DNA from: a virus
Lineage: Duplodnaviria; Caudoviricetes
Reading direction: 5' to 3' (one strand)
Length of the DNA: 58,230 bases
IMG/VR virus record: IMGVR_UViG_3300009034_000044
Span: 1 to 58,230 of that record
In this document: positions 66-56,678 of the stretch, one piece after another
How the letters are laid out: every line of letters begins with the position of its first letter
How positions within the stretch are numbered: position 1 is the first letter of the stretch
The notes under the pieces: generated by a model
Told to the model about the DNA's origin: nothing
What the model saw: only the letters and a program-made list of their open reading frames with translations
Database searches by the model: none
Program-made: the position numbers and the translations under genes

Positions 66-311
66 TCATTTATACACATCTCCATTTTCTTTGATTTTTT
101 TGTCTTCATATGGAGCTACCACTCTACGATAAAGTTCCAATTTACATCCTTCCAATGCTCCCAATACATCATTAAGTGTACTATATGATAGAATATGTTT
201 TCTTATATATTGCGTAATAAGAGATGTAATCTGAAAATTAAGCTCTCCTGCATTATCGGGAACTGAACCACTAAGTAATGGTACTCGTTTTTCTTTTCTT
301 ATATATGGCAT
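66..311 (-). CDS. Conserved small phage protein (DUF6899-like)
   Basis: MPYI...GELNF.IT...Y..LNDVLGALEGCKLELYRRVVAPYEDKKIKENGDVY matches a recognisable phage family often found near nucleotide-metabolism genes. Confidence 0.65.
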   Translation of the reverse strand: MPYIRKEKRVPLLSGSVPDNAGELNFQITSLITQYIRKHILSYSTLNDVLGALEGCKLELYRRVVAPYEDKKIKENGDVYK

Positions 312-323
312 CTTTTTTTCCTT

Positions 324-554
324 TTATCCCATACAATGTTTAAGATATTTTAGTAAATAGTTAAAGGCTTGAACCCTGCCCTGATTACGATATATAGAAT
401 TAACATTTTCTTCTATATCGTTATCATCCCTTGCTTCATTTAACATAGCTTGAACTAATTTCATAACTATGAAAACTGTATTGGGGTCTTTTTTGGCTTT
501 TAAGTCTGCAATGATTTTTCTGATATCTACATCTCCACCTATTACTGGCATTTC
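324..554 (-). CDS. Hypothetical protein (probable start at MPVIGG, downstream of the ORF-track start)
   Basis: GAGGAG Shine-Dalgarno precedes the internal Met; co-oriented with neighbours. Confidence 0.5.
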   Translation of the reverse strand, partial: EMPVIGGDVDIRKIIADLKAKKDPNTVFIVMKLVQAMLNEARDDNDIEENVNSIYRNQGRVQAFNYLLKYLKHCMG

Positions 555-796
555 TCCTCCTCTTTTACTTGCTTTATAATTACTCCGATTGAAACAAATA
601 TCAATATTACTATCTGAACTAAAAATGGAATTGCAAACAGTTCCCAACTATCACCCTTAACAGATACTTTTCCTGCTATCCACATTAAAATACCATTAAT
701 TAATACTACTAAACTTAAACTTAACATTGCCTTCTCCTTTCTCTTGTTTGATTTTGTACTCCATTCCAGTTTCCATACAATAAAGAATTTCTTCAT
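542..796 (-). CDS. Small membrane protein (2 TM)
   Basis: Two hydrophobic segments; downstream of the promoter at 887-916. Confidence 0.5.
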   Translation of the reverse strand: MKKFFIVWKLEWSTKSNKRKEKAMLSLSLVVLINGILMWIAGKVSVKGDSWELFAIPFLVQIVILIFVSIGVIIKQVKEEEKCQ

Positions 797-886
797 TGGA
801 ATAATTCATGCATGGAGTAAGCTTTTCTCTTTTGCTAATTAAAAATTCTCTATATTGTTCAGGTGTCATTTCTTATCCTTTTCGAT

Positions 887-916
887 ATTATAGCATAACC
901 GATTTACTTTTGTCAA
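887..916 (-). promoter_or_regulatory. Consensus sigma70 promoter
   Basis: TTGACA-18 bp-TATAAT with extended -10 TG on the minus strand. Confidence 0.8.
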
Positions 917-929
917 GAGAAAAAAATAC

Positions 930-1020
930 TGAGAAGGGAGGGAATTTAACCCCCATTAACTCACTATCACCCTTCACTATACTTCGATGCATCTCCATAT
1001 AGCTACTCGGCTACCTTCCC
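930..1020 (-). pseudogene. Degenerate class II tRNA-like element (Ser/Leu-like)
   Basis: Acceptor GGGAAGG/CCTTCTC, T arm GGGGG-TTAAATT-CCCTC, D region TAGCCGAGTAG; anticodon and variable arms do not fold cleanly; no CCA. Confidence 0.5.
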
Positions 1021-1022
1021 TA

Positions 1023-1098
1023 TGGTCAGGGAGGTAGGACTTGAACCCACGACCACTCCGTTCCAGGCGGAGGACTCTACCAACTGAGCTACTCCCTG
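1023..1098 (-). tRNA. tRNA-Pro(UGG), CCA encoded
   Basis: CAGGGAG/CTCCCTG acceptor, A73, anticodon arm CTCCG-CCTGGAA-CGGAG, T loop TTCAAGT. Confidence 0.9.
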
Positions 1099-1173
1099 TG
1101 GTGGGAAGGGAGAGAATTGAACTCTCATCAAACGAGCCACAATCGTTCCGCTTACCATTAGCATACCTTCCCC
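1099..1173 (-). tRNA. tRNA-His(GUG), CCA encoded
   Basis: GGGAAGG/CCTTCCC acceptor with an extra upstream G, A73, anticodon arm AACGA-TTGTGGC-TCGTT, T arm GAGAG-TTCAATT-CTCTC. Confidence 0.88.
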
Positions 1174-1175
1174 AT

Positions 1176-1252
1176 TGGCGATGCTGGAGGGATTTGAACC
1201 CTCATCCTCCAGCTTGACAAGCTGGTGCTTTGTCCAGTTAAGCAACAGCACC
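1176..1252 (-). tRNA. tRNA-Asp(GUC), CCA encoded
   Basis: GGTGCTG/CAGCATC acceptor, G73, anticodon arm CCAGC-TTGTCAA-GCTGG. Confidence 0.9.
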
Positions 1253-1254
1253 TT

Positions 1255-1332
1255 TGGTGAAGCCAGTGGGACTCGAACCCACGCATCAGGGTTGAAAGCC
1301 CTGCTTCCCTTGCCTTTTAGGAGTATGGCTTC
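1255..1332 (-). tRNA. tRNA-Glu(UUC), CCA encoded
   Basis: GAAGCCA/TGGCTTC acceptor, anticodon arm CAGGG-CTTTCAA-CCCTG, T arm GTGGG-TTCGAGT-CCCAC. Confidence 0.9.
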
Positions 1333-1333
1333 T

Positions 1334-1579
1334 TTATACAGGTATAAGTTTACCATGTTTATGTCGTGCCATTAATTCATCTAAATACGAATAAATATCA
1401 ATAAGACAATCCCTTTCAAATACAGTTTGACATACAGGAAAGAAAGCATATTTTCTCCATCGTGGATACCACTTTATAATACCTATCAAAAATCCTTCTT
1501 CTTTTGTAATGACCTCATATACGTTTGTTTTTGGTTTTACTTCTATTAACCTAAATTCAATCCACTTAGCCTTAGCCAC
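1334..1579 (-). CDS. Hypothetical phage protein
   Basis: GGAGAGG SD; protein-like motif IGIIKWYPRWRKYAFFP...VFERDCL.DI. Confidence 0.7.
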   Translation of the reverse strand: MAKAKWIEFRLIEVKPKTNVYEVITKEEGFLIGIIKWYPRWRKYAFFPVCQTVFERDCLIDIYSYLDELMARHKHGKLIPV

Positions 1580-1823
1580 GACCTCTCCTTTTTTCTCTTG
1601 GTGTTAAATTATACTTTGCTCCTGCGAGCTTGCCATGATTCCTACCACTACACACACACTTACAAAATACAATAGAACTCTTTGCGTAATGACAGTTAGC
1701 ATTACAAACTCCTTTCTTTTCTTTTTTATGTTTTATGATTTTATTTTTTTTGGTCGGAAGGGTAGGATTTGAACCTACGATGTTCAGCACATAGGCAACA
1801 GATTTACAGTCTGCTTGCTTCAT
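1572..1823 (-). CDS. Cys-rich Zn-binding small protein (start uncertain; overlaps tRNA-Tyr)
   Basis: C-terminal CNANCHYAKSSIVFCKCVCSGRNHG motif; the only ATG lies inside the tRNA gene. Confidence 0.5.
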   Translation of the reverse strand: MKQADCKSVAYVLNIVGSNPTLPTKKNKIIKHKKEKKGVCNANCHYAKSSIVFCKCVCSGRNHGKLAGAKYNLTPREKRRGRG

Positions 1824-1841
1824 CCCCTTGCATACCTTCCG
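1751..1841 (-). tRNA. tRNA-Tyr(GUA), long variable arm, C1:G72, CCA encoded
   Basis: CGGAAGG/CCTTCCG acceptor, A73, anticodon arm GCAGA-CTGTAAA-TCTGT, T arm GTAGG-TTCAAAT-CCTAC. Confidence 0.9.
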
Positions 1842-1902
1842 TTTTGTACATCCTTATACAATTCCTTGTATAGATTTTACAATTTCTTGTACGGTTTTAA
1901 TA

Positions 1903-1992
1903 TGGTGGAGATGAGGGGAGTTGAACCCCTGTCCAAAAGTAGTTACAATATGTTTCCATATGCCTTGCTTATGTCGAATCCCTTACATCCCC
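1903..1992 (-). ncRNA. ssrA: Mini-tmRNA (tRNA-like domain only, no tag reading frame)
   Basis: 5' GGGGATGTAAGGGATTCGAC and 3' GGACAGGGGTTCAACTCCCCTCATCTCCACCA are ssrA termini with G3:U70 and A73; only about 38 nt lie between them. Confidence 0.8.
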
Positions 1993-1996
1993 TTTT

Positions 1997-2035
1997 AAAA
2001 AAAATAATAAGAGGGGATTTACCTGATACCCCTCT
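1997..2035 (-). terminator. Intrinsic terminator/attenuator-like hairpin upstream of the mini-tmRNA
   Basis: AGAGGGG-12 nt-CCCCTCT followed by TATTATTTTTTT. Confidence 0.55.
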
Positions 2036-2071
2036 ATAGTTCTGTGGGTTTTGCCCTTACATATTATTCAT

Positions 2072-2100
2072 ATAATATCATAAATGAATAAAATTTGCAA
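2072..2100 (-). promoter_or_regulatory. Sigma70-type promoter for the RNA operon
   Basis: TTGCAA-17 bp-TATTAT with extended -10 TG. Confidence 0.6.
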
Positions 2101-2227
2101 GATAAAAATTTACATATTTATATATAATTAATTATTTATATAACAAAGTATCATATCCCATTCCCAAGGCAATACAGGCTCATCAATAATTTCCTCTGGC
2201 TCTATCACTAAGGAATCGAACCTCATA

Positions 2228-2401
2228 TTAATCTTTTTTGGGTTCTGGAAGTCCCTTGCCCTTACCTTTACCTTTATAGGTTCTCCAAAATCCATAAGCC
2301 CTGCCTATAGCTTCTTTCGCTGAAATCCCTTCTTTACGAAATTCACTTATAGCTCTGGAAATGAACTTTTGTTTAGATTCTTTTTTTCCTGGTCTTGGCA
2401 T
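2228..2401 (-). CDS. 57-aa basic protein (not in ORF track)
   Basis: MPRPGKKESKQKFISRAISEFRKEGISAKEAIGRAYGFWRTYKGKGKGKGLPEPKKD; abuts the upstream stop codon; resembles small helical phage head-associated proteins. Confidence 0.7.
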   Translation of the reverse strand: MPRPGKKESKQKFISRAISEFRKEGISAKEAIGRAYGFWRTYKGKGKGKGLPEPKKD

Positions 2402-2402
2402 T

Positions 2403-2630
2403 TTAGGGAATTAATCCTTTCTTTCTTAATCTTTCTATTGCCCTTTCAGATTCTTCTAATTCACCAAATGTAGATTTTAGTTTTGGTTCAATCTCAGGTA
2501 ATCCACCTTTCTTTGGTAACTTAGTAACTGGTTTGCGTTGTACATGTTCTACATCTTCAAGGGCTTTCTTAATTTTTGCTGCTCGCTTACGAAATATATT
2601 AACAACATTTTTATTTTCATTATTTGGCAT
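2403..2630 (-). CDS. Small basic protein (start MPNNENK)
   Basis: GGAGG SD before the internal Met; tight operon packing. Confidence 0.65.
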   Translation of the reverse strand: MPNNENKNVVNIFRKRAAKIKKALEDVEHVQRKPVTKLPKKGGLPEIEPKLKSTFGELEESERAIERLRKKGLIP

Positions 2631-2982
2631 TTTTTTGTTTCCTCCTTTTTCTTTTCTTTGCTTCTTTAAGTTCTTCAACTTCTACATTATATTTATAAAT
2701 TTTTATTATAGCTCCTATAGGAATCTTTAAAAGTTGATTGCCTGTTCTTTCTATTGATATTTCTTTAGGGTGATTAACTTCCCATGTTTGTTGTAAATAA
2801 ATAATTTTATCTTCTATTCTTAATATAAATCCTGGTGTCATAAATTCACATGAACCTACACGATAACCTAAATCAAGATTTCCAAAATAAGTAATGTCTA
2901 CCCAATGGACAAGAGTTAATGTATCTGGAACATGACCTTCTTTTAGTAATTCTATTGTTTCATCATCTTTTTTAATAGACAT
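2620..2982 (-). CDS. Hypothetical protein (VHWVDI...GFIL...IPIGAI, Sm/SH3-like beta family common in phages)
   Basis: GAGGA SD; motif pattern. Confidence 0.6.
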   Translation of the reverse strand: MSIKKDDETIELLKEGHVPDTLTLVHWVDITYFGNLDLGYRVGSCEFMTPGFILRIEDKIIYLQQTWEVNHPKEISIERTGNQLLKIPIGAIIKIYKYNVEVEELKEAKKRKRRKQKNAK

Positions 2983-2994
2983 TTTCTTATCCTC

Positions 2995-3207
2995 TTATTT
3001 CTTTTTTCTTGCTTTATATTTCTTTTTTACAGTTCTCCAATAAGCTGCACCAGCTACCGCTTCAGGGTCTCTTACTTTATCTTTTTTAGCAGCAGCTTGC
3101 CTTTTAATTCTTTCAAAAGTTGCTGGTTTCATGATAGCACCAGGTTTCTGTTTTTCTCTCCATTCCAATACTGGTTCGGGTAAACCCTTTGTTTTTTTAT
3201 TTGCCAT
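2995..3207 (-). CDS. Small highly basic protein, probably virion/DNA-associated
   Basis: AGGAGG SD; Lys/Arg-rich; DPEAVAGAAYWR motif. Confidence 0.7.
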   Translation of the reverse strand: MANKKTKGLPEPVLEWREKQKPGAIMKPATFERIKRQAAAKKDKVRDPEAVAGAAYWRTVKKKYKARKKK

Positions 3208-3231
3208 TTTTATCCTCCTTTTTTAATAATC

Positions 3232-4395
3232 TTATTCTATTATTTCCATAGCAAACCAAGCCCTATCCTGGTCATTGGCAAACGCCAAATTACCACCTGA
3301 ACTTTGATAAACATAAAGTAGGAAATAATCACCACCAGTAACCGTTAGAACAGCAGAGGAAATATTATTGTCTGATGTATCTTGTGCTGATTGCACAGTT
3401 ATACCCATTCCAATAAAATCATTGTTTCCATTCTTCTGCATGAACAATGCTCTTGTACCAGTAGAATTATTTGCCCAATTGCCATTAGCAGTAAGCCTTA
3501 CTTTAGTAACTCCTGCTGGAACGTAAAGTCTGTCCGTATTTGAAACAATACTATGAATATTATCTGTATCATATTCGTCAGCGTGCCAATTTATTATTAT
3601 TGGAGTACTATTAGGAATCGTGGAAACACCAAGCCTTTTTACTAATGCTCCCCTAAATGCAGGTTTCCTTGCCCATAGAATCCTTGAGCCAGCATCCAAT
3701 CCAGCGTAACCATTTGCCTGGTCTTTATTAGCTACTTGCTCTAAATCTGCTGCATGTTTGGTATCAACTGTATCAGCATCCTTACCAGTTAAGGTAGCTG
3801 GAATACGAGCTAAGGGTACTAAACTGCCAGCATCCAGACCACAATACCCACTTGCAGCATCCTTCTCCGATTCTTTCTGATAGCCTGTATGGGGGTCTAC
3901 TGCACCCTCATGGGTAGTTATCTTATTATCTATCTCTGTCTGAATATCTGCAAAGTGTTTTGTGTCAACCGAGTCGGCATCCTTACCTATTAAGGGAGTA
4001 GGAATTTGTGCTAAAGGTACATCTGCTGCTCCGTCTAATCCGCAATAACCATTAACCTGATTCTTTTCTGATTCCTTTTGATAACCAATATGAGGGTCTC
4101 CTGCTGCTTCATGGGCTGGTACGGGGTCAGTCGGACTTCCATGGGTATGGTCTCCTCTACTGGCTTTTGAAGAACTACCAGGAGCAGGGGATATTCCAAA
4201 AGTAGTCTCATCCTCAACTGTATCCTCTAAACCACTTACACCAGAAGAAGATGCAACAGTAACATCCACTCTGTCGTTTGCTTGATTATCATCAACAGTA
4301 AGGGTTATATTAGAACCAGTAATGAAATTTATTGTTCTTCGTGTTCCTTTTAATATTGTATTTAATAATACTGAAAACGGTCTGTAAATAATCAT
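3232..4395 (-). CDS. Tail fibre / receptor-binding protein
   Basis: Repeated HxxxxDPHxGYQKESEK..NGYCGLD shaft units; C-terminal C1q/TNF-like beta-sandwich. Confidence 0.7.
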   Translation of the reverse strand: MIIYRPFSVLLNTILKGTRRTINFITGSNITLTVDDNQANDRVDVTVASSSGVSGLEDTVEDETTFGISPAPGSSSKASRGDHTHGSPTDPVPAHEAAGDPHIGYQKESEKNQVNGYCGLDGAADVPLAQIPTPLIGKDADSVDTKHFADIQTEIDNKITTHEGAVDPHTGYQKESEKDAASGYCGLDAGSLVPLARIPATLTGKDADTVDTKHAADLEQVANKDQANGYAGLDAGSRILWARKPAFRGALVKRLGVSTIPNSTPIIINWHADEYDTDNIHSIVSNTDRLYVPAGVTKVRLTANGNWANNSTGTRALFMQKNGNNDFIGMGITVQSAQDTSDNNISSAVLTVTGGDYFLLYVYQSSGGNLAFANDQDRAWFAMEIIE

Positions 4396-4397
4396 AT

Positions 4398-4721
4398 TTA
4401 TTCCTCCTTGTAATAAATAATAGATATTTTTGTATTATGAGATGTAGCCTTTACTCCTCTAAATCCAGCTATCTCTGCATAATTTTCAAAAGTAATACTA
4501 TCCCCTTGATAACCTGTAGTATAGTATTCTAAATAATGTTGACAATGGGCTGATGTTGGATTACCAGAATCTATCCTAAATTGAATGGATTCTGATTCTA
4601 CAACCATATCTGCACTAATTACACTCTCACATCCCAAGAAATACCAAACTCCTCTGCTTAGGAGCATTATATCAGTTTCGCTTGTAAATAAAATAACTTC
4701 AGTTCCGTATGGGACTCTCAT
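4398..4721 (-). CDS. Hypothetical beta-rich virion protein
   Basis: Located in the structural operon; SD present. Confidence 0.55.
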   Translation of the reverse strand: MRVPYGTEVILFTSETDIMLLSRGVWYFLGCESVISADMVVESESIQFRIDSGNPTSAHCQHYLEYYTTGYQGDSITFENYAEIAGFRGVKATSHNTKISIIYYKEE

Positions 4722-4730
4722 TTATTTTCC

Positions 4731-5429
4731 TTATGGTAATCCTTTTCTCTTTCCTTTTAAATATTTAATTTCAGCTTCGGCTACCTCTTTTATGTCTTTA
4801 TAAATATGCTTAAATAATTTTGGTTCTTCATTTTCAATAAACACAACCAATGGATGTTTTCTTCCGTAAACTTTCCATTTCGTTGCTGTTTCTGCAACTA
4901 ATTCTTCTTTGTTAAATATACCAACATCTAAAGATAATCTATCTGCTTTTTTAAGAGTTCCCTTTTTAATATTAGGATATATTTTACCCCTTGCTTTTTC
5001 ATAAAAATTTTTAGCATGTTGCAATTCATGTAATACAGTAGCTTCAGGTGGTCGCCCTGTATAAGCATATTTACTAATATCCTGTAGGTAAACACTTTCC
5101 TTGTGATATAATCCCCTCCATGCTTTTGCACCTGGCTTTTTTGCCAATACCTTTTCTTTTGCAAGTAAATCTTCTATTGGTTTTATTCCTTTTAATTGCT
5201 TTTTAAATACTGGTTCTGACAATCCTCTAAAAGTAGGCTTTACTGCTTGACGATACACTGACCTCCAAAGACTTATTAAGTCTCTATATGCCTTTCCTCT
5301 TGCTCCTATTTTCATTAAACCAGCAGCAAGTGGGTCTAAACTAACATCATAATATATTGTTTTAGCTATTTTTTTTGCTGGTTCAGGAAGTCCTTTTATT
5401 GGGAACTCTGGTTTTTTAATAATTGGCAT
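4731..5429 (-). CDS. Basic virion protein with zincin HExxH motif
   Basis: ATVLHELQH followed by EELVAE; adjacent to the large internal protein. Confidence 0.6.
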   Translation of the reverse strand: MPIIKKPEFPIKGLPEPAKKIAKTIYYDVSLDPLAAGLMKIGARGKAYRDLISLWRSVYRQAVKPTFRGLSEPVFKKQLKGIKPIEDLLAKEKVLAKKPGAKAWRGLYHKESVYLQDISKYAYTGRPPEATVLHELQHAKNFYEKARGKIYPNIKKGTLKKADRLSLDVGIFNKEELVAETATKWKVYGRKHPLVVFIENEEPKLFKHIYKDIKEVAEAEIKYLKGKRKGLP

Positions 5430-8400
5430 TATTCCCTACCTTCCATTTCTCTTTCTTGTTCTTCAGCTTCCCTATATCCCCTAACTTGTCTACGAATAGC
5501 AGTTATATCTAATCGCATACCTCTTGCTCTTGCATCGTCTATAAGTTTTTTTACATCTCCATGTCTACGTTCTTCTATTGCCCTACCAATTTGTCTATGT
5601 ATTCCAGCCTTATATTTCCTAACCATTCTTGCACTTTCTTTTATTGCCATTAAAGCAGCATAAAATTCTGATGGTGTAGCAGTAGTAAATCCAAGAGCAT
5701 ATAAAAACTTTTCTTTTTCATCCATCTTCTTGGGCATTTCATTATAAACTTCCAATGCTCTCTTTCTAAGTTCAAGTGGTAATCTTTTAATATCTTCTCT
5801 GGTTATTTTGGGCTTACCAAAAATAGTTTCTGTACTAAATCCCATAGCATGTTTAACCATAGTTGGAGAGTTCCTTCTAATAAAGTTTTCCCAATCTACG
5901 CCTTCTTCGGCTAATGCTAATTTAATATTATATATACTGCCCTTCACTAAAGGAATACCAGCAATGTCAAACAGTTCTGGAGAACCAAAAGTAATAGAAC
6001 CTTCTACTCCTACCATAGATGGTAATCCCTTTGTTAAAGTATTTATTGTAGCTTCTCCATATTTATTCTTTAAAGTTCTTAGTGTTTCTCTTTTTGATAA
6101 TTCCCAATCGTGTACTCCTACTATTTTTTTCATGGCAAAATCTACTGCCTCAACAATAAACCCCATACCATAAATACCACCTAAACCACCAAGAGCTAAT
6201 CTTGTAGATATTGCTCCAGCAAAAGCCTTTTTATGGGGATATAAATCCTTTAAGAAGTTCAAGTCATTAAATACATAACTCTTAAAGACAAATCCCATTG
6301 CTCTCCATCCCCTACCTATAATCGGTCTATTTTCTTTACCATACATCCATTGAGTTTTACTAATAAAATCTACTACATAATCAAAAAGAACTTCTCCCCT
6401 TAATCCTCTCCTTGTACCAATTTCTACAGCAGTTAAGGCAGAATGAATCCTATTAGATTTTTCTGAAGCAGTAGATAATACATTTAAAAATCTTCCGATT
6501 TTACTTTTGCCAATAATTTCAAGATTTCTTAAGGATTCAAGTTCTCCTCTGTCATGGAGTTTTATAATAACATCTTTATCAGTAGCACTAAAAATATTAG
6601 AGCTTTTAATTAGGTTTCTTGTGGTTTCTCCCTTTAGTCTTCCCCTGACAAATTCCTTATAAAAATTCAACTCCTTAAGCTGGCTTCTTAATACAATACC
6701 TCCACCACCATCTCCAGCTTCTTTTATAGCTCTCCATACAGTAGTAGCTCCTCTCTGAGATAAGTTAAGCAAAGCAAATGATGGCTTAAGAGATAAGTTC
6801 CAATTATAAATAATATTCCTTACAAGAAAATTCATATTACCTTCATAGTCCCTTCTACCTAAATAATAATCTACAAGATTTTTAGCATATATTTGCTTTT
6901 CTTCTGGAACATTATCTATTAAATCCTGTATATGTCTTGCTCTTGCTCTCCTGACAAAAGAACGTGGAAATGTTTCTGCATATCTTTCTATTACATAATG
7001 AATATCTGTAGAAAATCCCTTTATACCTTCTCTTGGAGCTAACCTACCCCTTGCCCAAATTTCAAGATAAGCACCATGAAGTACATCTTCTAATTCTTTT
7101 ACTGTCTCTGGTGCAATATCTTTCGATTTAAGTAAATTTCTCATGCGTGGTAAATCATGAATCATTTCTAATAACTCAGGAAATTTAAATCCATATTTTC
7201 TCTTTACATCAAACATACCTAACTTTGCGTTTGGCAGTTGTTCCATTAATTCTGTTGTTCTCTTTTTAGCTGCCTTAACTGATTCAAAGTTTTCAGCCCA
7301 AATAATTTTCTTACTTTCATCTCTTGCATATACAACGTAATCTCCCTCTCCCCTTACTAATGGGAAATAAAAAGCTCTTGTATGTTTACTAATATAATCA
7401 TTTATGTAATCTTCTGTTTTCTCAAATCCCTGTGCTTTTGCTATTGCATCAAATGCACTTGCATTTTCTTTTAATTCCTTTTTAAACTGTTCCATCATCC
7501 ACTTTGTATTTTCAAATACCCTTTCTACCATAGCTCTTTCTTTTGGATTAAGCCTCTCCCAACCAACAGGAGTTTGTTTTACAGTAGTTTTATAAATTGC
7601 ATCTGTCATATCTTGAGATGGTTTATAGCGTTTTAAAAATTCATTCTTTCTTAAAAATTCATGTTGTATTTCTGCTGTTCGTTGAGATACTTTTCTTAAT
7701 CCTTTAGTTACAAAAGATATATCTTTATCCCATACTGGAACTTTTACCCATTGACCTATCTTATATTTAATATAAGGGAAAAATCCTAATTGCTTTGCCA
7801 TATCATTAACTAATACTTCTCTTTCCTTATTAGGAACAGACTTGAATACATCACTTGCTGCTTCTACATTTTTATTCATAAAGCCCATAAATTTGTCTTT
7901 CATATCTCCAAATCTTTCCTTAAGTGAATATTCTTGTCTTAAAAATAAATCATGTTCTGGAGTACCAGAAGTATGGTCATTGACAACATATCCTTCTCTT
8001 GTTTCTTTTAATGGCTCTTGAGCTTCCATGCTTATTTCTCTAAATGCCCTAAGAATCTTAGGAAGTTCTAATGTAACACCATCTGTTCCATAATATTCTA
8101 CAAATCTTTTTCTGAAACTTTCAATGGTAGTATGTCCTTCATTATATATTTGCTTTCCAATTTCTCTAACCTGATGGTACATTAATTTACCACCAAAAGG
8201 TTCTCCAGTAAATGTATTATATAAATCATTCACTCTTTCTCTAAAACTTGCAAAAGTGCTTTTTAATATATCTCTTTCGGCTGTAGCTTCTTTTGGAAGA
8301 AATCTTTCAAGTCTAAGTTCTTGCATCGTTAAGACTTCATGGATAGCATCTAATTGAGTTCCTTTTTTAAATTCCTGCATTAATTGTGTAGTTGCTTGTC

Positions 8401-37689: not shown

Positions 37690-37947
37690 ATGTATATAGT
37701 GAAAAAAAGAAATGTCATTGTAGTGCATGATAAGAAATTTACTTATCATTTTATACTTAACAGTAAGAAATCAGATAACGGTTTTACTCATGGTTTTCTA
37801 CATGGTATAATAGACTATAAAAACAAGATATTCTATACCACTAAAGAAAATCACTTTTATAATAATGACATTATACGGAGGATGTACACAGTTGTAGAAT
37901 ATAACAAAATGAGATTGCTTGACCTATATAATAAAGGTTTAAAGTAG
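37690..37947 (+). CDS. Hypothetical protein
   Basis: GGAGG SD. Confidence 0.6.
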   Translation: MYIVKKRNVIVVHDKKFTYHFILNSKKSDNGFTHGFLHGIIDYKNKIFYTTKENHFYNNDIIRRMYTVVEYNKMRLLDLYNKGLK

Positions 37948-39134
37948 TGAAAATAACCTTTTGTCAATTCCATAACAACCTCATTAACGGAAGTTATCAA
38001 GATACTATAGCTGATAGATATTATAATGGTATGTATCAGTATAAGCACAATGATGGTTACTATAAAACCTCAGAGTTTTTTGAATTACCGTTATGGATAG
38101 CTGAAATTAATGGAAGTTTAACCAGTGGTTATGATACTGAATTATTAATAATTGATAACGTAGACAATGCCATAAATCGATTAAATAATAGTGGTAGTGA
38201 TTACATACTCTTTTCAGTATTGGATGTCAATAAAAGATATATTAAGGATATAATCAAAAGATATACTGGTAACGGTTTATTTTGTATTGGTGGCTATGTA
38301 GATTTTACATACTTCAACGGTTTATTGGTAAAGGTATTTAATACCGTTAAACAGTTTATTGAATCATTAGGTATAGAATACCACTATAACTTAGATTATA
38401 AGCTATTCAGAGGTTACAAGACAATACCACGTTTAACTTTAAGTTATGGATGCCTTAACAGATGTAAATTTTGTACCGTAGAAAAAACCATAACTGAGGT
38501 TACTATAGATAACATACTAAAACAAGTTAATGCATTTCATATACTTGATTTTAAATTGGTATATATAAATGATAAAACTTTTGGTCAAGCTAATAATTAC
38601 CATTTATTACATACATTATTTGAAATGATAAAAAGTTATAATAAAGAGTTTAAAGGTTTTATAATTCAAACTACATGTATACAGCTATTAGATATTAACT
38701 TTCAAAATATGCTCCATAGTGGTATTATATATGCTGTAGAAATTGGAATAGAAACATTTAACAATGACTTGTTATATAGTTTAGATAAACCTCAAACAGA
38801 AGATGTTATTATAGAAGCTATAGCAGTTTTAAAAGATAATAATGTCCATATCATACCTAACATTATAATAGGTATCATAAATGAAAATAGAGATACTTAT
38901 AATAAAACCCTTAACCTTATAAAACAGTATCAAGAGGATATATACTTTTTGAATATATATAATTTAGCTGTATATCTTGATACTCCACTTGCTAAGGACA
39001 TTAACGTACTAAACGACAATGACCTTAACGAAAACATAACCAATAAAAGTTTTTATACTGAAAAACAAATGGAAGATAACGAATACTTTTATAATGAAAT
39101 ATTTAAAATTGGTATAGAGATTTTAAACCGTTAA
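37947..39134 (+). CDS. Radical SAM enzyme with an N-terminal B12-binding-like domain
   Basis: RLTLSYGCLNRCKFC (CxxxCxxC), YINDKTF, IGIETF, NIIIGI; N-terminal FSVLD and IGG. Confidence 0.85.
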   Translation: MKITFCQFHNNLINGSYQDTIADRYYNGMYQYKHNDGYYKTSEFFELPLWIAEINGSLTSGYDTELLIIDNVDNAINRLNNSGSDYILFSVLDVNKRYIKDIIKRYTGNGLFCIGGYVDFTYFNGLLVKVFNTVKQFIESLGIEYHYNLDYKLFRGYKTIPRLTLSYGCLNRCKFCTVEKTITEVTIDNILKQVNAFHILDFKLVYINDKTFGQANNYHLLHTLFEMIKSYNKEFKGFIIQTTCIQLLDINFQNMLHSGIIYAVEIGIETFNNDLLYSLDKPQTEDVIIEAIAVLKDNNVHIIPNIIIGIINENRDTYNKTLNLIKQYQEDIYFLNIYNLAVYLDTPLAKDINVLNDNDLNENITNKSFYTEKQMEDNEYFYNEIFKIGIEILNR

Positions 39135-39431: not shown

Positions 39432-39710
39432 ATGAAAAGTTTTAAATTATATACAGAGCATAGAGATAACTTAATTGAGCTTGCAAGGTTTTATTTTAAT
39501 GAGTTTACAGTATATAATAAAACTGGTAATGATTCCATTGTTGGTTTATGGAATAATGAAATAGAGCAAACTTCCATAATAGAAATAATAATGAATGATA
39601 CTATAATTAATGAAAGTTTGATATGTAAGTTAATAAATGATATCAAAAGAGTAAATAATCAACAAATGGTATTACTAACTATAACAGATATGGAAGTTAT
39701 ATATGGATAA
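39432..39710 (+). CDS. Hypothetical protein (ferredoxin/PII-like fold)
   Basis: FTVY...GLW..EIEQTSIIEI...IKRVNNQQMVL. Confidence 0.55.
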   Translation: MKSFKLYTEHRDNLIELARFYFNEFTVYNKTGNDSIVGLWNNEIEQTSIIEIIMNDTIINESLICKLINDIKRVNNQQMVLLTITDMEVIYG

Positions 39711-40326
39711 CCTAATCAAAATATTTAATCAAGCTAACAGCTATGAAGTAGAAAAGGGTTTAACGTGGTATAGTGACGTTAATCAAACTTTAATAGAGCT
39801 TGCTAAAAAGTATGGCGTTAAACCTGAAATAGCACATGCAGTTTGTTCTGCATTATCGCCACGCTGTATATGGAATCAAAATTTGATAGATACTGAAAAG
39901 GTTTTAAGGTGGTATAAAGATAAAAAATCACTTAAACAAGGAATAGTAAATAAAACTTTACCATCTGTAACTACATATAAACGCAATCTTAAAAAAGCCA
40001 TAGATATATTAAAAACTGGTAACGTAGAAGTATTTAAAACTTGTAAAACTTTTAATTTCTTTAAAAATATAAGTGAACCATTTAATAATGATTATGTAAC
40101 GGTTGACGGTCACGCCATTAATGCTTACTATAATAAATTGGGTATTGTAGAAAATAAACATTTTACACCTAAATATTATAATGAGATAGCAACTAAATAT
40201 AAAAAAGGAGCTAAGAAATTTAATATATTAGCATGTCAATTTCAAGCTATAATCTGGTTAACATTTAAAAGAATACATAACATAAAAGTTAACTGGCGTG
40301 AATATCAAACCAATTTGCCATTTTAG
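39703..40326 (+). CDS. HhH-GPD-superfamily-like phage DNA-acting protein (DUF7178-like)
   Basis: GLTWY, SALSPR..W..N, KT.NF..NI, VTVDGHA, Y..IA, FQAIIW motifs. Confidence 0.65.
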   Translation: MDNLIKIFNQANSYEVEKGLTWYSDVNQTLIELAKKYGVKPEIAHAVCSALSPRCIWNQNLIDTEKVLRWYKDKKSLKQGIVNKTLPSVTTYKRNLKKAIDILKTGNVEVFKTCKTFNFFKNISEPFNNDYVTVDGHAINAYYNKLGIVENKHFTPKYYNEIATKYKKGAKKFNILACQFQAIIWLTFKRIHNIKVNWREYQTNLPF

Positions 40327-40621: not shown

Positions 40622-41230
40622 ATGGAGGATAGGCACATGTTACAAGAAATCATAGAAACTATATCAAATGGACATGTACCGTCATATTGGATTAATAACT
40701 ATGGTGTACCCACTAAAGGTAATTGTAGAATAGCACATATTGAAAACTGGTTAAAAAAGTTTTCTATAGAAATTGTTAACCCTAACATGCGAAATAAAAT
40801 TAACCCATCTTATTGTGGCGGTGTAATATACTTACCTGAAATAAATTATGTACCGAACATAGAACAATATTATATTGGAGCTTTTCACGAAATTATTCAC
40901 TATATCGGTGACATGAAGCACGACATTTATTTTAAAAATGCATGGAGTAACGAAAGACAACATGCTCAAGAAGAAATAATAGCACAGATTGGAGCTTTAA
41001 TTTTAGTTAAGAAGTTTAATTTAAAATTACAAAAAGAAACTTTAATAAATGAATATGCTTATCTTAAATTGTATCTCAAAAAATATACCTTACCCAATCT
41101 AAAGCAATATTTATTTTTTGATAGAGATGGGAACGAATATTATATAGAAGACTTAAGAAAATGTTATAGCATAGCTCTTGAGAGAATAAATTATATTATC
41201 CTTAATCAAGATACGGTGACATATACATGA
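40622..41230 (+). CDS. ArdC-like / polyvalent zincin metallopeptidase (anti-restriction candidate)
   Basis: IYLP...YY..AFHEIIHY.G...AQEEIIAQIGA...AYL..Y. Confidence 0.65.
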   Translation: MEDRHMLQEIIETISNGHVPSYWINNYGVPTKGNCRIAHIENWLKKFSIEIVNPNMRNKINPSYCGGVIYLPEINYVPNIEQYYIGAFHEIIHYIGDMKHDIYFKNAWSNERQHAQEEIIAQIGALILVKKFNLKLQKETLINEYAYLKLYLKKYTLPNLKQYLFFDRDGNEYYIEDLRKCYSIALERINYIILNQDTVTYT

Positions 41231-53662: not shown

Positions 53663-53881
53663 TTAAATATTATTAAAGACTCCAGCAATTGCAAGTAAAA
53701 TATAGATTAACCATAAAGAACTTTGTGCATATTCTTTAATTCTAAAATTATAATATAACATTAGTGGATTCGACATAACCCATATTATGCTTGCGATTAA
53801 GGGTTCTCCTAATGATACATATGCACATCCTATTAAAGAACCTACTATACCCAAGGAAAGAATTGTTTTCTTTCCCTTCAT
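53663..53881 (-). CDS. Small PnuC/PQ-loop-like membrane protein
   Basis: GIVGSLIG...IWVMSNPL..Y...Y.Q..LW.IY. Confidence 0.5.
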   Translation of the reverse strand: MKGKKTILSLGIVGSLIGCAYVSLGEPLIASIIWVMSNPLMLYYNFRIKEYAQSSLWLIYILLAIAGVFNNI

Positions 53882-54921
53882 TATTCATCTCCATGTTTTA
53901 ATAAATATTTATTAGATACAGCCTTGAAAGAAACTCTACCCACTTTAGGATGATATGATTCTGGTATGGTTCTAAATACCAATCCTTCTCTTAATGTTAG
54001 TGGATTAATTTGAGAATATCCATCTGCCATGTTAAGTAAATCATTAATAGAATGATTTAAATAAAAATAATAGTTTAAAATTGGTACAGTGTAAAATCCA
54101 TAATCAGCACAGAACCTTTCCATACCTAATCCATCTAAATATTTACCAGTATTTATATTAAATACACTAAATATTTTATAGGCATAAGTATCGTTAGCAA
54201 AATTATATTTATTTTTTTGGATACCACTTCCTATAAGTTCTCCATGAATAGCCCAATTACCTTCTGTTTGATTAAGTTTTTTTTCGATATTTTCTCGTCT
54301 TGCTACTTTCCAATATGCATTATCAGGTGTCTCTTTTAAATCTAAATTTCTGGAGCATACACTAAACTCACCATCTTTTATATAGCAAGTCATAGATGTT
54401 CCATTTAGTTTCTCAGAAACATAAAATCTTTTTCCCTTACACCATTCAAGAAGATATTCAAGATTTTGTACACGTTCCTCATCTGTCTTAATAAGAAAAG
54501 ATGGATAGCTTCCCCTAACCAATCCTGATAAATGAGCAGGAATGTATGGCTCATATTTTTTAATTTCCAATAACTCTGTCACATCCATATGAACACAAAA
54601 ATCATATACAGGACTTTCTCTGGTATCGCTTTTATATTTCTTGCCTTCAAGTATTGATATCGGAAACGCTATACCTTGAGATAATTGTTTGCGTAATTTA
54701 ATAGTTTTAATTCTAAAATTTCTTGGTCTTAAAAATTCAAACTCTGGTTTCTCTGGAAGGATAGAATCAATTTCAACATATACACAACAATCTCCTGCTT
54801 TAAAATCACCTTTCCTGACTACTACTTGCCAACCATCTATTAAGGCTAACTCAATATTGTCAGCACCTAATATAGATACTATATCTTTAACAATTCTTAC
54901 GGTTGCTAATTTTCTTTCCAT
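53881..54921 (-). CDS. RNA ligase, Rnl2/DRB0094 family
   Basis: RKLATVR..I.GADNIE...DGWQVVV, EIDS.LP, SQG, KTDEER.QN, motif I EKLNGTS, GELIG.GIQKN.Y, REGLV, SFKAVSNKYL. Confidence 0.92.
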   Translation of the reverse strand: MERKLATVRIVKDIVSILGADNIELALIDGWQVVVRKGDFKAGDCCVYVEIDSILPEKPEFEFLRPRNFRIKTIKLRKQLSQGIAFPISILEGKKYKSDTRESPVYDFCVHMDVTELLEIKKYEPYIPAHLSGLVRGSYPSFLIKTDEERVQNLEYLLEWCKGKRFYVSEKLNGTSMTCYIKDGEFSVCSRNLDLKETPDNAYWKVARRENIEKKLNQTEGNWAIHGELIGSGIQKNKYNFANDTYAYKIFSVFNINTGKYLDGLGMERFCADYGFYTVPILNYYFYLNHSINDLLNMADGYSQINPLTLREGLVFRTIPESYHPKVGRVSFKAVSNKYLLKHGDE

Positions 54922-54930
54922 TTTTATCTC

Positions 54931-56061
54931 CTATCTAAAGTCTATTGGCACAGCAAGAGACGATATAACCCTTTTCTTTGATGAGCCAAATAACCACTGA
55001 CAGGGCTGCGTTGATGTTCCATATAACTTAAAAGCATAATCATCGTGAGGTATCCAGCATCCATTAACCAATAACTCTGCGTTTGGTGAGAGAGCTATTC
55101 TGTCTGAACGATGTCTGTGACCAATAATATAAAGATTATATCCATCTGGTAAATTTATAAGTAACTCTTTGGCTTTACGTTCAGCATAGGAAGTGGTGTA
55201 CCCTTTGATAGTTTCTCCATGAGACATAAATATTTTATGTCCATAGTTATCTACGCTATAAAATCTACTATCAGGGATGTCAACCTTAATATTGCTATTA
55301 CCCTCAAGAGTCATTCCAAGTATTCTATATAAATGATATTCAAAGTTATTCTCCACAGGTTCTTCCTCTCTGGCATTTGTAACGCTTCTACCATGATTTC
55401 CCACTACACATTTAACTCTTGTTTCTGGAAAGTATTTAGATAAAATATTAATCATATCTGCTAACTCTGCTATTGCACTCCAAATTTGCTTTCCCACTGG
55501 CATTGAAATCATATTTTTTTGTCCCTCAAAAATCCTATCATTATCCACAATATCTCCAAGCAAAAAGACATTCAATGCTTCAAAATAATATCCGTTCTTC
55601 CACAGAGTAAGTAATCTCATTACACTTTCCAAATATAGTTTTTGAAAATCTAATCTTATTTCATTATTATATGTAATTATTTTCTGATTGTTTCTGGTAT
55701 CATACCATTCATTTACCTTCCCTATGTGCATATCAGATATAACAAGATTAAGTATTTCCTTTGACTTTTCTTTATTGTAGTTCTGTTTATATAAGGGAAA
55801 CCTTTTTTGAAGATAATCATTGGAAACCAATTCCTTTAATGTGGCTATAAATTCTTCTGTAGAAAGAGAAGGAACTATAGATTTTTTGAACTCAGAAGGG
55901 AGAGCCTTGTCTATAGTTTTATGTTCCTTAAGTCTTCTTATCTTGCCCACAACAGAATCAAGAGTTCTATTTAGAGTTTTTGCCATTTCTTGTGGACTTA
56001 ACTTTCCTAAGTTTTTTTCAAGATATTCAATTTCTTCTTCAATCCAAATATCTTTTACCAT
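54931..56061 (-). CDS. Calcineurin-like metallophosphoesterase with N-terminal HTH
   Basis: SDMHIG, LGDIVD, GNHG, SHG, GHRH. Confidence 0.85.
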   Translation of the reverse strand: MVKDIWIEEEIEYLEKNLGKLSPQEMAKTLNRTLDSVVGKIRRLKEHKTIDKALPSEFKKSIVPSLSTEEFIATLKELVSNDYLQKRFPLYKQNYNKEKSKEILNLVISDMHIGKVNEWYDTRNNQKIITYNNEIRLDFQKLYLESVMRLLTLWKNGYYFEALNVFLLGDIVDNDRIFEGQKNMISMPVGKQIWSAIAELADMINILSKYFPETRVKCVVGNHGRSVTNAREEEPVENNFEYHLYRILGMTLEGNSNIKVDIPDSRFYSVDNYGHKIFMSHGETIKGYTTSYAERKAKELLINLPDGYNLYIIGHRHRSDRIALSPNAELLVNGCWIPHDDYAFKLYGTSTQPCQWLFGSSKKRVISSLAVPIDFR

Positions 56062-56678
56062 TTAAAATCCTCCCATTTAGTTCCTGAATATCTCTGCCAT
56101 ATAAGGGCATCGAGTTCAGCAACAGTTAGATTATATGCTTTAGCTATATTTTTAAATCTTACTTCATAAAAAAGATATTCATATTTGCATGTTGCATATC
56201 GAGTAGTAAAACCTAAAAATTTTAATATATGAGTATCAATAATGGCTAAGTCTTTATCACCTAAATTTCTAAGAAAATGAGATGCAGCCTTATAACCTAA
56301 GCCCTTTACTTCCTTAACTAAATATTCACGTTTATCATATGCAGAACATTCATTGCAAATAACAATATCATATATTATATCGAATTTTCTTTTCATCTCT
56401 ATGAGATATTTGGCTTTTTGATTGTAGAACCTTACTGGTTTAAGTATATCCAAAAAAAATTCCATTTCAAAATTACCAATATCCCTTGCGAGATAATAAA
56501 ATCCGATATCCTGCAACCTGTCTATAACTTTTCTATTATTTTTAAAGGTAGTTTGTGGAGCAGTAATACAGAAACATAAATCATAAAATATTTCTACTTT
56601 GGTTTTAGGTTTACCAAAGTTTTTAAAGGTTGCCTTAAGTCCTTCTCTTTCTTTTCTGGTTATTTTAAGTTCATGCAT
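56055..56678 (-). CDS. ogg: 8-oxoguanine DNA glycosylase/AP lyase (Ogg2-type)
   Basis: LCFCIT, VRFYNQKA.Y, REYLVKEVKGLGYKAASHFLRNLG (catalytic Lys), LAIIDTHIL (Asp), ELDALIW. Confidence 0.85.
   Translation of the reverse strand: MHELKITRKEREGLKATFKNFGKPKTKVEIFYDLCFCITAPQTTFKNNRKVIDRLQDIGFYYLARDIGNFEMEFFLDILKPVRFYNQKAKYLIEMKRKFDIIYDIVICNECSAYDKREYLVKEVKGLGYKAASHFLRNLGDKDLAIIDTHILKFLGFTTRYATCKYEYLFYEVRFKNIAKAYNLTVAELDALIWQRYSGTKWEDFKW

What the first reader, a model, noticed from the sequence alone, without database searches (positions are those of the whole stretch)
1903..1992. 90-nt mini-tmRNA: tRNA-like domain without tag ORF, a candidate SmpB decoy or tagless rescue RNA
Seen: both ssrA termini in normal (non-permuted) order with G3:U70, A73, CCA, the GATTCGAC D-loop analogue and GGAC-T-arm, joined by only ~38 nt with no pseudoknots or resume codon. 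Established: the TLD carries the AlaRS and SmpB determinants; full tmRNAs are about 350 nt; TLD-only forms are known from some mitochondria and, from memory, at least one mycobacteriophage. Inference: it could titrate SmpB to stop tagging and degradation of phage proteins, or add Ala and release stalled ribosomes without tagging.
Basis: partly seen in the sequence, partly recalled or inferred. Interest (0 to 1): 0.8.

Follow-up and report, generated by a model that had tools for sequence, protein, structure and literature searches.

The report
Phage tag-less mini-tmRNA gene
An uncultured phage, probably of gut Clostridia, carries a real 90-base gene for only the alanine-accepting, tRNA-like end of the bacterial ribosome-rescue RNA (tmRNA); one such RNA is already published from mycobacteriophage DS6A, so this is a further member of a known kind that probably interferes with the host's rescue-and-tag system.

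Summary
Window 1903-1992 (minus strand) matches Rfam tmRNA end to end at 72.4 bits (threshold 47). About 300 central model positions are replaced by 18 bases. The 7-bp acceptor stem with G3:U70, discriminator A, CCA, GGGAUUCGAC, GGAC and the T arm are all present. No tag frame beyond chance was found.

It lies in a five-tRNA island that five related phage contigs lack. Its last 32 bases are identical to full-length ssrA genes, mostly of gut and rumen Clostridia.

The kind is known. Mycobacteriophage DS6A has a "TLD only" tmRNA, and a similar RNA inhibits tmRNA in E. coli (PMC4131195, PMC11915505). My model, built from 28 other phage mini-tmRNAs, scores DS6A at 60.5 bits and this element at 56.3.

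The class is common in uncultured phages, covaries strongly, and keeps G3:U70 in 57 of 58 distinct copies. This scan met the same kind before on other DNA.

Most likely function: competition with host tmRNA for SmpB and stalled ribosomes. This is inferred, not shown. Verdict: new member of a known kind, moderate interest.

The parts
1903..1992 (-). Mini-tmRNA gene, 90 nt, tRNA-like domain only
   Evidence: Rfam RF00023 72.4 bits, model 1-374 end to end. 56.3 bits (E 2e-12) with model R1, built from 28 other phage mini-tmRNAs; the window's tRNAs score at most 28.8.
1986..1992 (-). Acceptor stem, 5' strand GGGGAUG (RNA 1-7)
   Evidence: Pairs 7 of 7 with 1907-1913; third pair G:U.
1973..1982 (-). 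D-loop analogue GGGAUUCGAC (RNA 11-20)
   Evidence: Aligned to the conserved GGaUUCGAC of the Rfam consensus.
1935..1972 (-). 38-nt linker (RNA 21-58): weak P2 stem (21-27 with 52-58, 5 of 7 standard pairs) around a hairpin CAUAUG-GAAA-CAUAU(U)G (RNA 31-47)
   Evidence: Pairs listed. R1 alignment marks 2 non-standard P2 pairs. Replaces about 300 model positions. No similarity to the interior of host tmRNAs.
1914..1934 (-). GGAC plus T arm AGGGG-UUCAACU-CCCCU (RNA 59-79)
   Evidence: Part of the 32 nt that are identical to ssrA 3' ends of 91 species genomes.
1903..1913 (-). Acceptor 3' strand CAUCUCC, discriminator A, encoded CCA (RNA 80-90)
1997..2035 (-). Terminator-like hairpin AGAGGGG-12 nt-CCCCUCU (2035-2010) with a U-rich tail (2009-1997), ending 4 nt before the gene
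   Evidence: Sequence. Fold -14.9 kcal/mol for 1993-2066, z = -0.73, so not special by energy.
2072..2100 (-). Promoter-like site TTGCAA-17-TATTAT with TG before the second hexamer
   Evidence: 9 of 12 matches. 13 such sites found in the region against 7.9 expected, so this is weak evidence.
1751..1841 (-). tRNA-Tyr (GUA), 61 nt downstream on the same strand
   Evidence: ARAGORN. Rfam tRNA 52.7 bits.
1023..1332 (-). tRNA-Glu, tRNA-Asp, tRNA-His, tRNA-Pro array on the same strand
   Evidence: ARAGORN. Rfam tRNA 52.5-68.5 bits.

Best explanation
Identity (about 0.9). This is a functional phage gene for a tag-less mini-tmRNA, of the kind published for mycobacteriophage DS6A. It sits at the head of a tRNA island in a roughly 58-kb HK97-fold tailed phage whose host is probably a gut or rumen member of the Bacillota, likely Clostridia.

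Mechanism (about 0.55, inferred). The RNA is transcribed with the tRNAs and cut at its 5' end by RNase P. Its 3' end is trimmed to the encoded CCA. Host AlaRS charges it with alanine through G3:U70 and A73. Host SmpB binds it at the UUCGAC/GGAC elbow. As Ala-RNA-SmpB-EF-Tu it competes with host tmRNA for SmpB and for stalled ribosomes with an empty A site. Because it has no resume codon, tag frame or pseudoknots, it lowers SsrA tagging, and with it the proteolysis and RNase R-linked mRNA decay that follow. This would spare products of broken phage messages late in infection.

Shown: the sequence features, family membership, and structural selection and Ala-identity conservation across the class. 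Inferred: expression, processing, charging, SmpB binding and the effect on tagging.
For: (1) RF00023 72.4 bits end to end.
(2) R1, built without the window or DS6A, scores the window at 56.3 bits and DS6A (JN698994 28478-28560) at 60.5. tRNA-Ala and the 3' part of a full-length tmRNA reach only 41.4 and 37.1.
(3) Class-level selection on 28 members: 90.1% of cells paired, 16 of 22 pairs changed on both sides, covariation score 0.570 against 0.141 in shuffles (0 of 500 reach it) and at most 0.131 when partners are slid.
(4) With a search pattern that leaves the acceptor end free, 57 of 58 distinct copies have 7 of 7 acceptor pairs and G3:U70, and 58 of 58 have discriminator A. The same held in all 24 matches of another such pattern. 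An A:U or G:C pair would keep the helix, so charging with alanine seems to be selected.
(5) The last 32 nt equal the ssrA 3' end in 91 species genomes. 73 of the 80 listed titles name Bacillota taxa. 69 of the 91 are full-length genes of 340-399 nt. The RNA therefore presents the host's own acceptor and T arm.
[quoted passage not shown] PMC11915505 says the DS6A form inhibited endogenous tmRNA in E. coli (passage).
(7) The window has no SmpB gene, so any partner is the host's.
Against: There are no data on expression, processing, charging or SmpB binding for this RNA.

Its P2 stem is weak, 5 of 7 standard pairs. Its R1 score is among the lowest of 76 matches.

It has no close relative. The exact-form scan gave 0 hits, and 0 of 5 related phage contigs carry it. 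Selection on this particular copy therefore cannot be shown.

A terminator-like hairpin lies directly upstream and no clear promoter follows it.

The strict conservation of G3:U70 is not needed for a passive SmpB sponge. As cited in PMC4131195, Mao et al. found inhibition with or without chargeability. This leans toward an active role on the ribosome.

I could not read Mao et al. 2009 itself.
Confidence: 0.55

Rival explanations
1. Productive tag-free rescue. The alanine-charged RNA enters stalled ribosomes with SmpB and EF-Tu and accepts the nascent chain. The ribosome is then freed by drop-off, peptidyl-tRNA hydrolase, an ArfB-type factor or further rounds of alanine addition. The phage gains ribosomes without its proteins being marked for ClpXP. 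This overlaps with the decoy model and differs in whether the net effect is rescue or blockade.
For: G3:U70 in 57 of 58 and discriminator A in 58 of 58 distinct class members, under a pattern that does not impose them. This implies that charging matters. Message-less tmRNAs persist in mitochondria and some plastids together with SmpB (PMC11915505, passage). Recalled, not checked here: in vitro, TLD fragments with SmpB and EF-Tu accommodate and accept peptide.
Against: No release mechanism is known for a peptidyl-TLD without a stop codon. [quoted passage not shown] The only experiment cited for a similar molecule shows inhibition (PMC4131195).
Confidence: 0.25
2. Decaying remnant. A recent private internal deletion of a full-length phage or host ssrA copy, carried along with the tRNA island and without function.
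For: The element is private. 0 of 5 related contigs have it, and no near-identical copy exists in viral contigs. The P2 stem is weak.
Against: Both termini are perfect: 7 of 7 and 5 of 5 pairs, all conserved TLD segments, encoded CCA. The linker shows no trace of host tmRNA interior: best local score 10 against a shuffled-linker mean of 12.4. It has the same plan as the selected class, a P2 stem around a small hairpin, here closed by GAAA. None of the 69 full-length host-type genes, nor any other genome match with this 3' end, is a mini form.
Confidence: 0.07
3. Integration site or RNA-processing signal. The tRNA-like element serves as attP (or as a target for other elements), or merely as an RNase P cut site that punctuates the transcript.
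For: tmRNA genes are common integration sites (PMC11915505, PMC10865867, passages). In one Clostridia-class genome three mini copies lie within 36 kb. One of them diverges after the T arm, as at an attachment junction. In 17 other phage loci the mini lies about 99 nt upstream of the capsid gene inside the late operon.
Against: No tyrosine or serine recombinase was found in the window (Pfam/PHROG scans). The contig is only 76% complete. An attP needs only the 3' part, and any tRNA would do as a cut site. Neither explains the co-varying 5' strand, G3:U70, or the conserved UUCGAC and GGAC.
Confidence: 0.06
4. Miniature but complete tmRNA. The linker frame GCA UAU GGA AAC AUA UUG UAA would be used as a resume codon plus a six-residue tag (AYGNIL).
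For: The frame exists, starts with an alanine codon and ends in hydrophobic residues. Tags of only 2 residues exist in Fermentibacterota (PMC11915505).
Against: Such a frame appears in 950 of 5000 shuffles of the linker. Only 17 of 61 distinct class members have any GCN-to-stop frame, and these are not conserved in place or sequence. Most of the frame is paired in the hairpin. There are no pseudoknots or long helix 2 to place it.
Confidence: 0.03

Closest known systems
TLD-only (CDS-less) tmRNA of Mycobacterium phage DS6A (tmRNA Website tmID 11587; PMC4131195, PMC11915505)
   Same: Phage-encoded, standard (non-permuted) order, about 80-90 nt. Acceptor stem with G3:U70 and discriminator A, UCGAC and T arm, a P2 stem around a small hairpin, no tag frame. 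One model built from other phages scores both: DS6A 60.5 bits at JN698994 28478-28560, window 56.3 bits.
   Different: Host phylum: Actinomycetota versus probably Bacillota. GC 0.69 versus 0.46. The DS6A tail is not CCA (ends ...UCCACUA), while the window encodes CCA. DS6A's element lies between gp33 and a DNA polymerase III gene in a phage with a tyrosine integrase. The window's heads a tRNA island in a contig with no integrase found. The window's linker is 8-10 nt longer, AU-rich, has a GAAA-closed hairpin and a weaker P2.
Standard full-length tmRNA (Rfam RF00023) of gut and rumen Clostridia
   Same: The last 32 nt are identical in 91 species genomes. The 5' end is alike (GGGGAUGUAA..UUCGAC). 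Same AlaRS marks.
   Different: Those genes are 340-399 nt with helix 2, four pseudoknots and a tag frame. Here 38 nt replace all of that.
Message-less organellar tmRNAs (mitochondrial mt-tmRNA RF02544; about 65-bp plastid forms in Mallomonadaceae)
   Same: tRNA-like domain only, no tag frame, thought to work with SmpB (PMC11915505, passage).
   Different: These are organellar genes that are the cell's only tmRNA. This one is an extra copy brought by a virus into a cell that has a full tmRNA. I did not score the window against RF02544 separately, because Rfam's clan filter kept only RF00023.
Full-length and permuted phage tmRNAs (cluster C mycobacteriophages, Wildcat, Streptomyces, Gordonia and cyanophages, Melnitz)
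   Same: Phage-borne ssrA genes, often beside tRNA genes. [quoted passage not shown]
   Different: They keep a tag frame and pseudoknots: 282-529 nt, or the two-piece form. They are thought to supply rescue and tagging, not to lack it.

Membership tests
tmRNA (Rfam RF00023), tRNA-like domain | Score at or above the family's gathering threshold, with both termini matched | tested here: met
   72.4 bits against 47, model 1-374.
tmRNA (Rfam RF00023), tRNA-like domain | 7-bp acceptor stem with G3:U70, discriminator A73, CCA end (AlaRS identity) | tested here: met
   7 of 7 pairs, G3:U84, A87, CCA 88-90.
tmRNA (Rfam RF00023), tRNA-like domain | D-loop analogue GGxUUCGAC, and GGAC before a tRNA-type T arm | tested here: met
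   GGGAUUCGAC 11-20, GGAC 59-62, T arm 63-79.
tmRNA, complete molecule | mRNA-like domain: resume codon, tag reading frame, in-frame stop | tested here: not met
   Only a 6-codon frame that 19% of shuffles (950 of 5000) also give. ARAGORN finds no tag.
tmRNA, complete molecule | Long helix 2 and pseudoknots PK1-PK4 | tested here: not met
   18 nt stand where the Rfam model has about 300 positions. The linker is 38 nt.
Phage TLD-only tmRNA (DS6A type) | 65-100 nt, standard order, P2 stem closing a short hairpin in place of the message; phage-encoded | tested here: met
   R1 56.3 bits, full model 1-81. DS6A scores 60.5. tRNAs score at most 28.8 in the window and 41.4 elsewhere. The window is a virus record.
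Phage TLD-only tmRNA (DS6A type) | Inhibits host trans-translation or binds SmpB | not testable with these tools
   Known only second-hand for a similar molecule (Mao et al. 2009, as cited in PMC4131195).
tRNA-Ala | Anticodon arm with an alanine anticodon; cloverleaf called by tRNA finders | tested here: not met
   ARAGORN does not call it. Rfam's best family in the clan is tmRNA, not tRNA.
attP fragment of ssrA | Only the 3' part of ssrA, next to an integrase gene | tested here: not met
   The 5' strand is present and paired. PF00589 and PF00239 give 0 matches in the window. The contig is 76% complete.

The most novel reading that the evidence does not exclude
The RNA is not a passive SmpB sponge but an alanine-charged effector that enters stalled ribosomes. 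It would be one of a very large, almost wholly unannotated class by which phages of several bacterial phyla re-program ribosome rescue: tag-free release, or repeated alanine addition, instead of SsrA tagging. This would explain why G3:U70 and A73 are kept in nearly every copy, and why many copies sit inside late structural operons just upstream of the capsid gene.
Probability: 0.25. Interest if true: 0.7.

Novelty: new member of a known kind. Interest (0 to 1): 0.45.

Why it matters
Trans-translation is the main ribosome-rescue and quality-control path of bacteria, and an antibiotic target. A virus-borne RNA that mimics only its entry module would be a natural inhibitor or re-router of that path.

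In the papers I could search, only one phage example (DS6A) is described. Unannotated copies also sit in cultured Streptomyces and Pontimonas phages.

This window adds a low-GC, Bacillota-type member with an encoded CCA inside a tRNA island. The form is therefore not confined to actinophages. Cultured carriers make the decoy-versus-rescue question testable by ordinary phage genetics.

Tried and rejected
- Exact-form scan of viral contigs for the window's own 5' and 3' parts: 0 hits.
- blastn of window 1000-6000 against cultured phages: only tRNA-sized matches, none covering 80% or more of the query.
- Tail-protein relatives: weak repeat matches, not useful for synteny.
- blastn of the 90-nt gene against cultured phages: 26 records, all matching only the 3' third. 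The six I fetched are full-length or permuted tmRNAs, or a fragment cut by a contig end, not mini forms.
- Public sequencing runs for window 1000-4000: none was listed, so no RNA holder was listed.
- Tag frame AYGNIL: rejected as chance.
- Similarity of the linker to host tmRNA interiors: none.
- Integrase, resolvase and SmpB genes in the window: none found.
- Neighbouring small proteins, including a 57-aa lysine-rich one at 2228-2401: no Pfam or PHROG family.
- Mao et al. 2009 could not be opened, so it is cited second-hand. Its data and any supplements may bear on the inhibition claim.
- PMC11662646 (AcrIIIA1) and PMC9004378 (Melnitz) were read for tmRNA passages. They concern host tmRNA fragments and a full two-piece phage tmRNA, not mini forms.
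- A first attempt to centre a genome search on a locus id failed with an input error. It was redone with a genome handle.

Full report
**What is there**

The window is a whole IMG/VR virus record of 58,230 bases. It is linear and CheckV estimates it 76% complete. On the minus strand, 1992 to 1903 reads as a 90-nt RNA:

- A 7-bp acceptor stem (GGGGAUG / CAUCUCC) whose third pair is G:U.
- Discriminator A and an encoded CCA.
- GGGAUUCGAC at 11-20, and GGAC at 59-62.
- A tRNA-type T arm at 63-79.
- A 38-nt linker at 21-58.

Rfam's tmRNA model (RF00023) matches exactly these 90 bases at 72.4 bits (threshold 47, E 3e-26). The match runs from model position 1 to 374, with 18 bases standing for about 300 central positions. 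ARAGORN finds five tRNA genes on the same strand just downstream (Tyr, Glu, Asp, His, Pro) but no tmRNA, as expected without a tag frame.

Free energy alone says little: z = -1.03. The fold with acceptor and T arm enforced is within 0.9 kcal/mol of the optimum. In that fold the linker forms a weak P2 stem (5 of 7 standard pairs) around a GAAA-closed hairpin.

**Is there a hidden tag?**

The linker holds GCA UAU GGA AAC AUA UUG UAA. A frame of this kind arises in 950 of 5000 shuffles of the linker. Only 17 of 61 distinct class members have any alanine-codon-to-stop frame, with none conserved. I reject a tag.

**Genomic setting**

All genes up to about 36 kb run on the minus strand. They include a large terminase, a portal or adaptor protein, an HK97-type major head protein and tail proteins. 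The mini-tmRNA follows the last small ORFs of this block and precedes tRNA-Tyr by 61 nt.

Directly upstream lies a hairpin (AGAGGGG / CCCCUCU) with a U-rich tail that ends 4 nt before the gene. Further upstream is a promoter-like TTGCAA-17-TATTAT. Both are consensus matches only, so how the gene is transcribed remains open.

No SmpB, tyrosine integrase or serine recombinase is encoded in the window. About 48 ORFs scanned with Pfam or PHROGs gave none either.

**Relatives of the phage**

The major head protein finds 16 viral loci at 46-77% identity. Cultured phages reach at most 44%. I searched five of the related records, 254,863 bases in all:

- 0 of 5 have a tmRNA match.
- ARAGORN finds 0 tRNA genes in them.
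- cmscan finds nothing in the two closest.
- My own model finds nothing.

tblastx shows the two closest share window 75-188 and 3028-3207, but nothing in between. The tRNA-plus-mini-tmRNA island (about 200-3000) is therefore a private insertion. Equally, conservation of this very copy cannot be shown. Those records are 34-100% complete, so absence is not proven.

**Origin and host**

The last 32 nt occur exactly in 91 species genomes. Of the 80 titles listed, 73 name Bacillota taxa: Oscillospiraceae, Clostridia, Christensenellales, Erysipelotrichaceae and the like, mostly gut or rumen MAGs. Of the 91 matches:

- 69 are full-length genes of 340-399 nt beginning GGGGAUG.
- None is a mini form.
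- In 22 I found no 5' end within 480 nt. Seven of these had less than 480 nt of upstream sequence within the fetched stretch.

The linker has no similarity to the interior of those genes: best local score 10, shuffled mean 12.4. The host is thus probably a member of the Bacillota, likely Clostridia. The phage RNA shows the host's own acceptor and T arm. No trace of a recent deletion joint remains.

**The kind is known**

Hudson, Lau and Williams list "Mycobacterium phage DS6A (TLD only)". They write that a similar molecule, chargeable or not, strongly inhibits tmRNA, perhaps by titrating SmpB, citing Mao et al. 2009 (PMC4131195, passages). The 2025 database paper repeats this. It adds message-less mitochondrial and roughly 65-bp plastid forms and 2-residue tags (PMC11915505, passages). 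I could not open Mao et al..

Six full-text searches found no other description of phage mini forms. The library lacks most subscription journals.

**The class is large**

- A pattern for the two conserved TLD parts 20-50 nt apart hit 4 viral loci.
Of 84 matches in the loci delivered (those included), 75 have a 7 of 7 acceptor stem starting GGG. The other 9 do not.
- On 28 well-aligned members, a four-helix structure is 90.1% paired, and 16 of 22 pairs change on both sides. The covariation score is 0.570, against 0.141 in shuffles (0 of 500 reach it) and at most 0.131 for slid partners.
- The covariance model R1 built from them finds 76 matches at E <= 1e-6 in 85 sources.

R1 scores the window's element at 56.3 bits, with its tRNAs at most 28.8. 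It scores the published DS6A element at 60.5 bits, at JN698994 28478-28560, where the record has no annotation. Neither sequence was used to build R1. Rfam itself scores 6 of 6 other mini forms tested at 63-74 bits end to end.

The patterns imposed TTCGAC, and that also imposed UCCA. I therefore repeated the scan with a pattern that leaves the acceptor end free; it too stopped at 120 rows. Among 58 distinct copies:

- 57 have 7 of 7 acceptor pairs.
- 57 have G3:U70; one has G:C.
- 58 have discriminator A.
- Only 8 encode CCA.

A further pattern tied to the Clostridia-type T arm gave 2 viral and 22 metagenome matches. All are mini forms, and all have G3:U70. None is close to the window's copy. 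The nearest is L070, from a 123.6-kb contig.

**Contexts vary**

- 18 of 76 lie within 500 nt of a tRNA gene, 16 of them on the same strand. 55 of 76 have no tRNA in the fetched locus.
- In 17 loci the mini gene lies about 99 nt upstream of an HK97 capsid gene. In 13 it lies downstream of a prohead protease.
- Seven cultured-phage records cover at least 80% of a typical mini form, unannotated or under a hypothetical-protein annotation: Streptomyces phages pSt2308, LuckySocke, GiJojo, BRock (two records) and Alone3, and Pontimonas phage phiPsal1.
- In a sample of 151 Clostridia-class genomes, 2 had R1 matches at E <= 1e-6. One of these is a tRNA-Ala. The other genome holds three mini copies within 36 kb, one with a diverged 3' end. 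Only 30 candidates per genome were scored, so this count is a floor.

**Mechanism**

The sequence features, membership of the DS6A-type class, and class-wide selection for the fold and for alanine identity marks are shown. The function is inferred.

The RNA offers everything known to be needed for AlaRS, SmpB and EF-Tu. It offers nothing that lets a ribosome resume and terminate. The simplest reading is competition with host tmRNA, lowering tagging. The only experiment in print points the same way, though I know it only second-hand.

The near-invariance of G3:U70 argues that charging is selected. A pure sponge would not need it. I therefore give a quarter of the odds to an active, tag-free role on the ribosome. 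Remnant, attP or processing signal, and short-tag readings are minor rivals, for the reasons given under each.

**Verdict**

This is a real gene and a new low-GC, Bacillota-type, CCA-encoding member of a known kind. This scan has already met the same kind on other DNA and reached the same reading. My DS6A coordinates and class counts were obtained before that look-up.

Noticed in passing
window 53881-54921 (-), with 54931-56061 (-) and 56055-56678 (-): An RNA ligase (PF09414 plus PHA02142 OB-fold; PHROG 968, E 2e-77). Next to it are a weak metallophosphoesterase-like ORF (E 6e-4, below cut-off) and an Ogg-HhH glycosylase. An RNA-repair gene in the same phage as a tRNA island and a mini-tmRNA. 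DS6A, the published carrier, has an RtcB-like RNA ligase (gp76). Two cases only.
   Followed up: partly
L101 547-628 with ORF 727-1920; L113 3157-3238 with ORF 1436-2875; L102 ORF 564-1931: In 17 other phage loci the mini-tmRNA lies about 99 nt upstream of an HK97 major capsid gene on the same strand. In 13 it lies downstream of a prohead protease (portal, protease, mini-tmRNA, capsid). It is thus an RNA gene inside the late structural operon.
   Followed up: partly
L301, L303, L304 (genome handle G048, contig C1, 2,620,936-2,657,109): Three mini-tmRNA copies within 36 kb of one Clostridia-class chromosome (76.8, 67.0, 51.3 bits). The second and third share the 5' part. The third diverges right after the T arm, like an attachment junction.
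   Followed up: partly
phage records PV588686.1, OR725497.1, PP725410.1, KX925554.1/NC_048650.1, OR725492.1, MG835450.1: Cultured Streptomyces phages (pSt2308, LuckySocke, GiJojo, BRock, Alone3) and Pontimonas phage phiPsal1 match at least 80% of a typical mini-tmRNA. At those places the records show no feature or a hypothetical protein. The DS6A element is likewise unannotated in JN698994.
   Followed up: partly
window 1842-1902 (-): The 61-nt spacer between the mini-tmRNA and tRNA-Tyr carries repeated UGUAYAAG-like words. It folds better than shuffles: -9.2 kcal/mol, z = -2.29, 3 of 200 shuffles as good. Purpose unknown.
   Followed up: no
window 1751-1841 (-): The tRNA-Tyr gene is 82% identical to tRNA-Tyr genes of Fusobacterium phages Fnu1, FNU2 and FNU3. 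The mini-tmRNA's 3' end instead points to Clostridia. tRNA similarity alone does not settle the host.
   Followed up: no
window 37947-39134 (+), 39703-40326 (+), 40622-41230 (+): The only plus-strand block (about 36-47 kb, GC 0.26-0.31, opposite GC skew) holds a radical SAM protein, a DUF7178 protein and a zincin-like MPTase-PolyVal peptidase.
   Followed up: no
window 324-647 (-): A 107-aa ORF downstream of the tRNA array gives a sub-threshold match to PF12614 (RRF_GI, 'ribosome recycling factor'): E 0.0045, 17.5 bits against a cut-off of 26.8. Probably chance. Noted only because of the theme.
   Followed up: no
window 2228-2401 (-): A 57-aa lysine-rich basic ORF with a KGKGKGKG run lies about 235 nt upstream of the mini-tmRNA. 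It has no Pfam or PHROG family and no cysteines. It is unlike the cysteine-rich partner noted elsewhere in this scan.
   Followed up: partly
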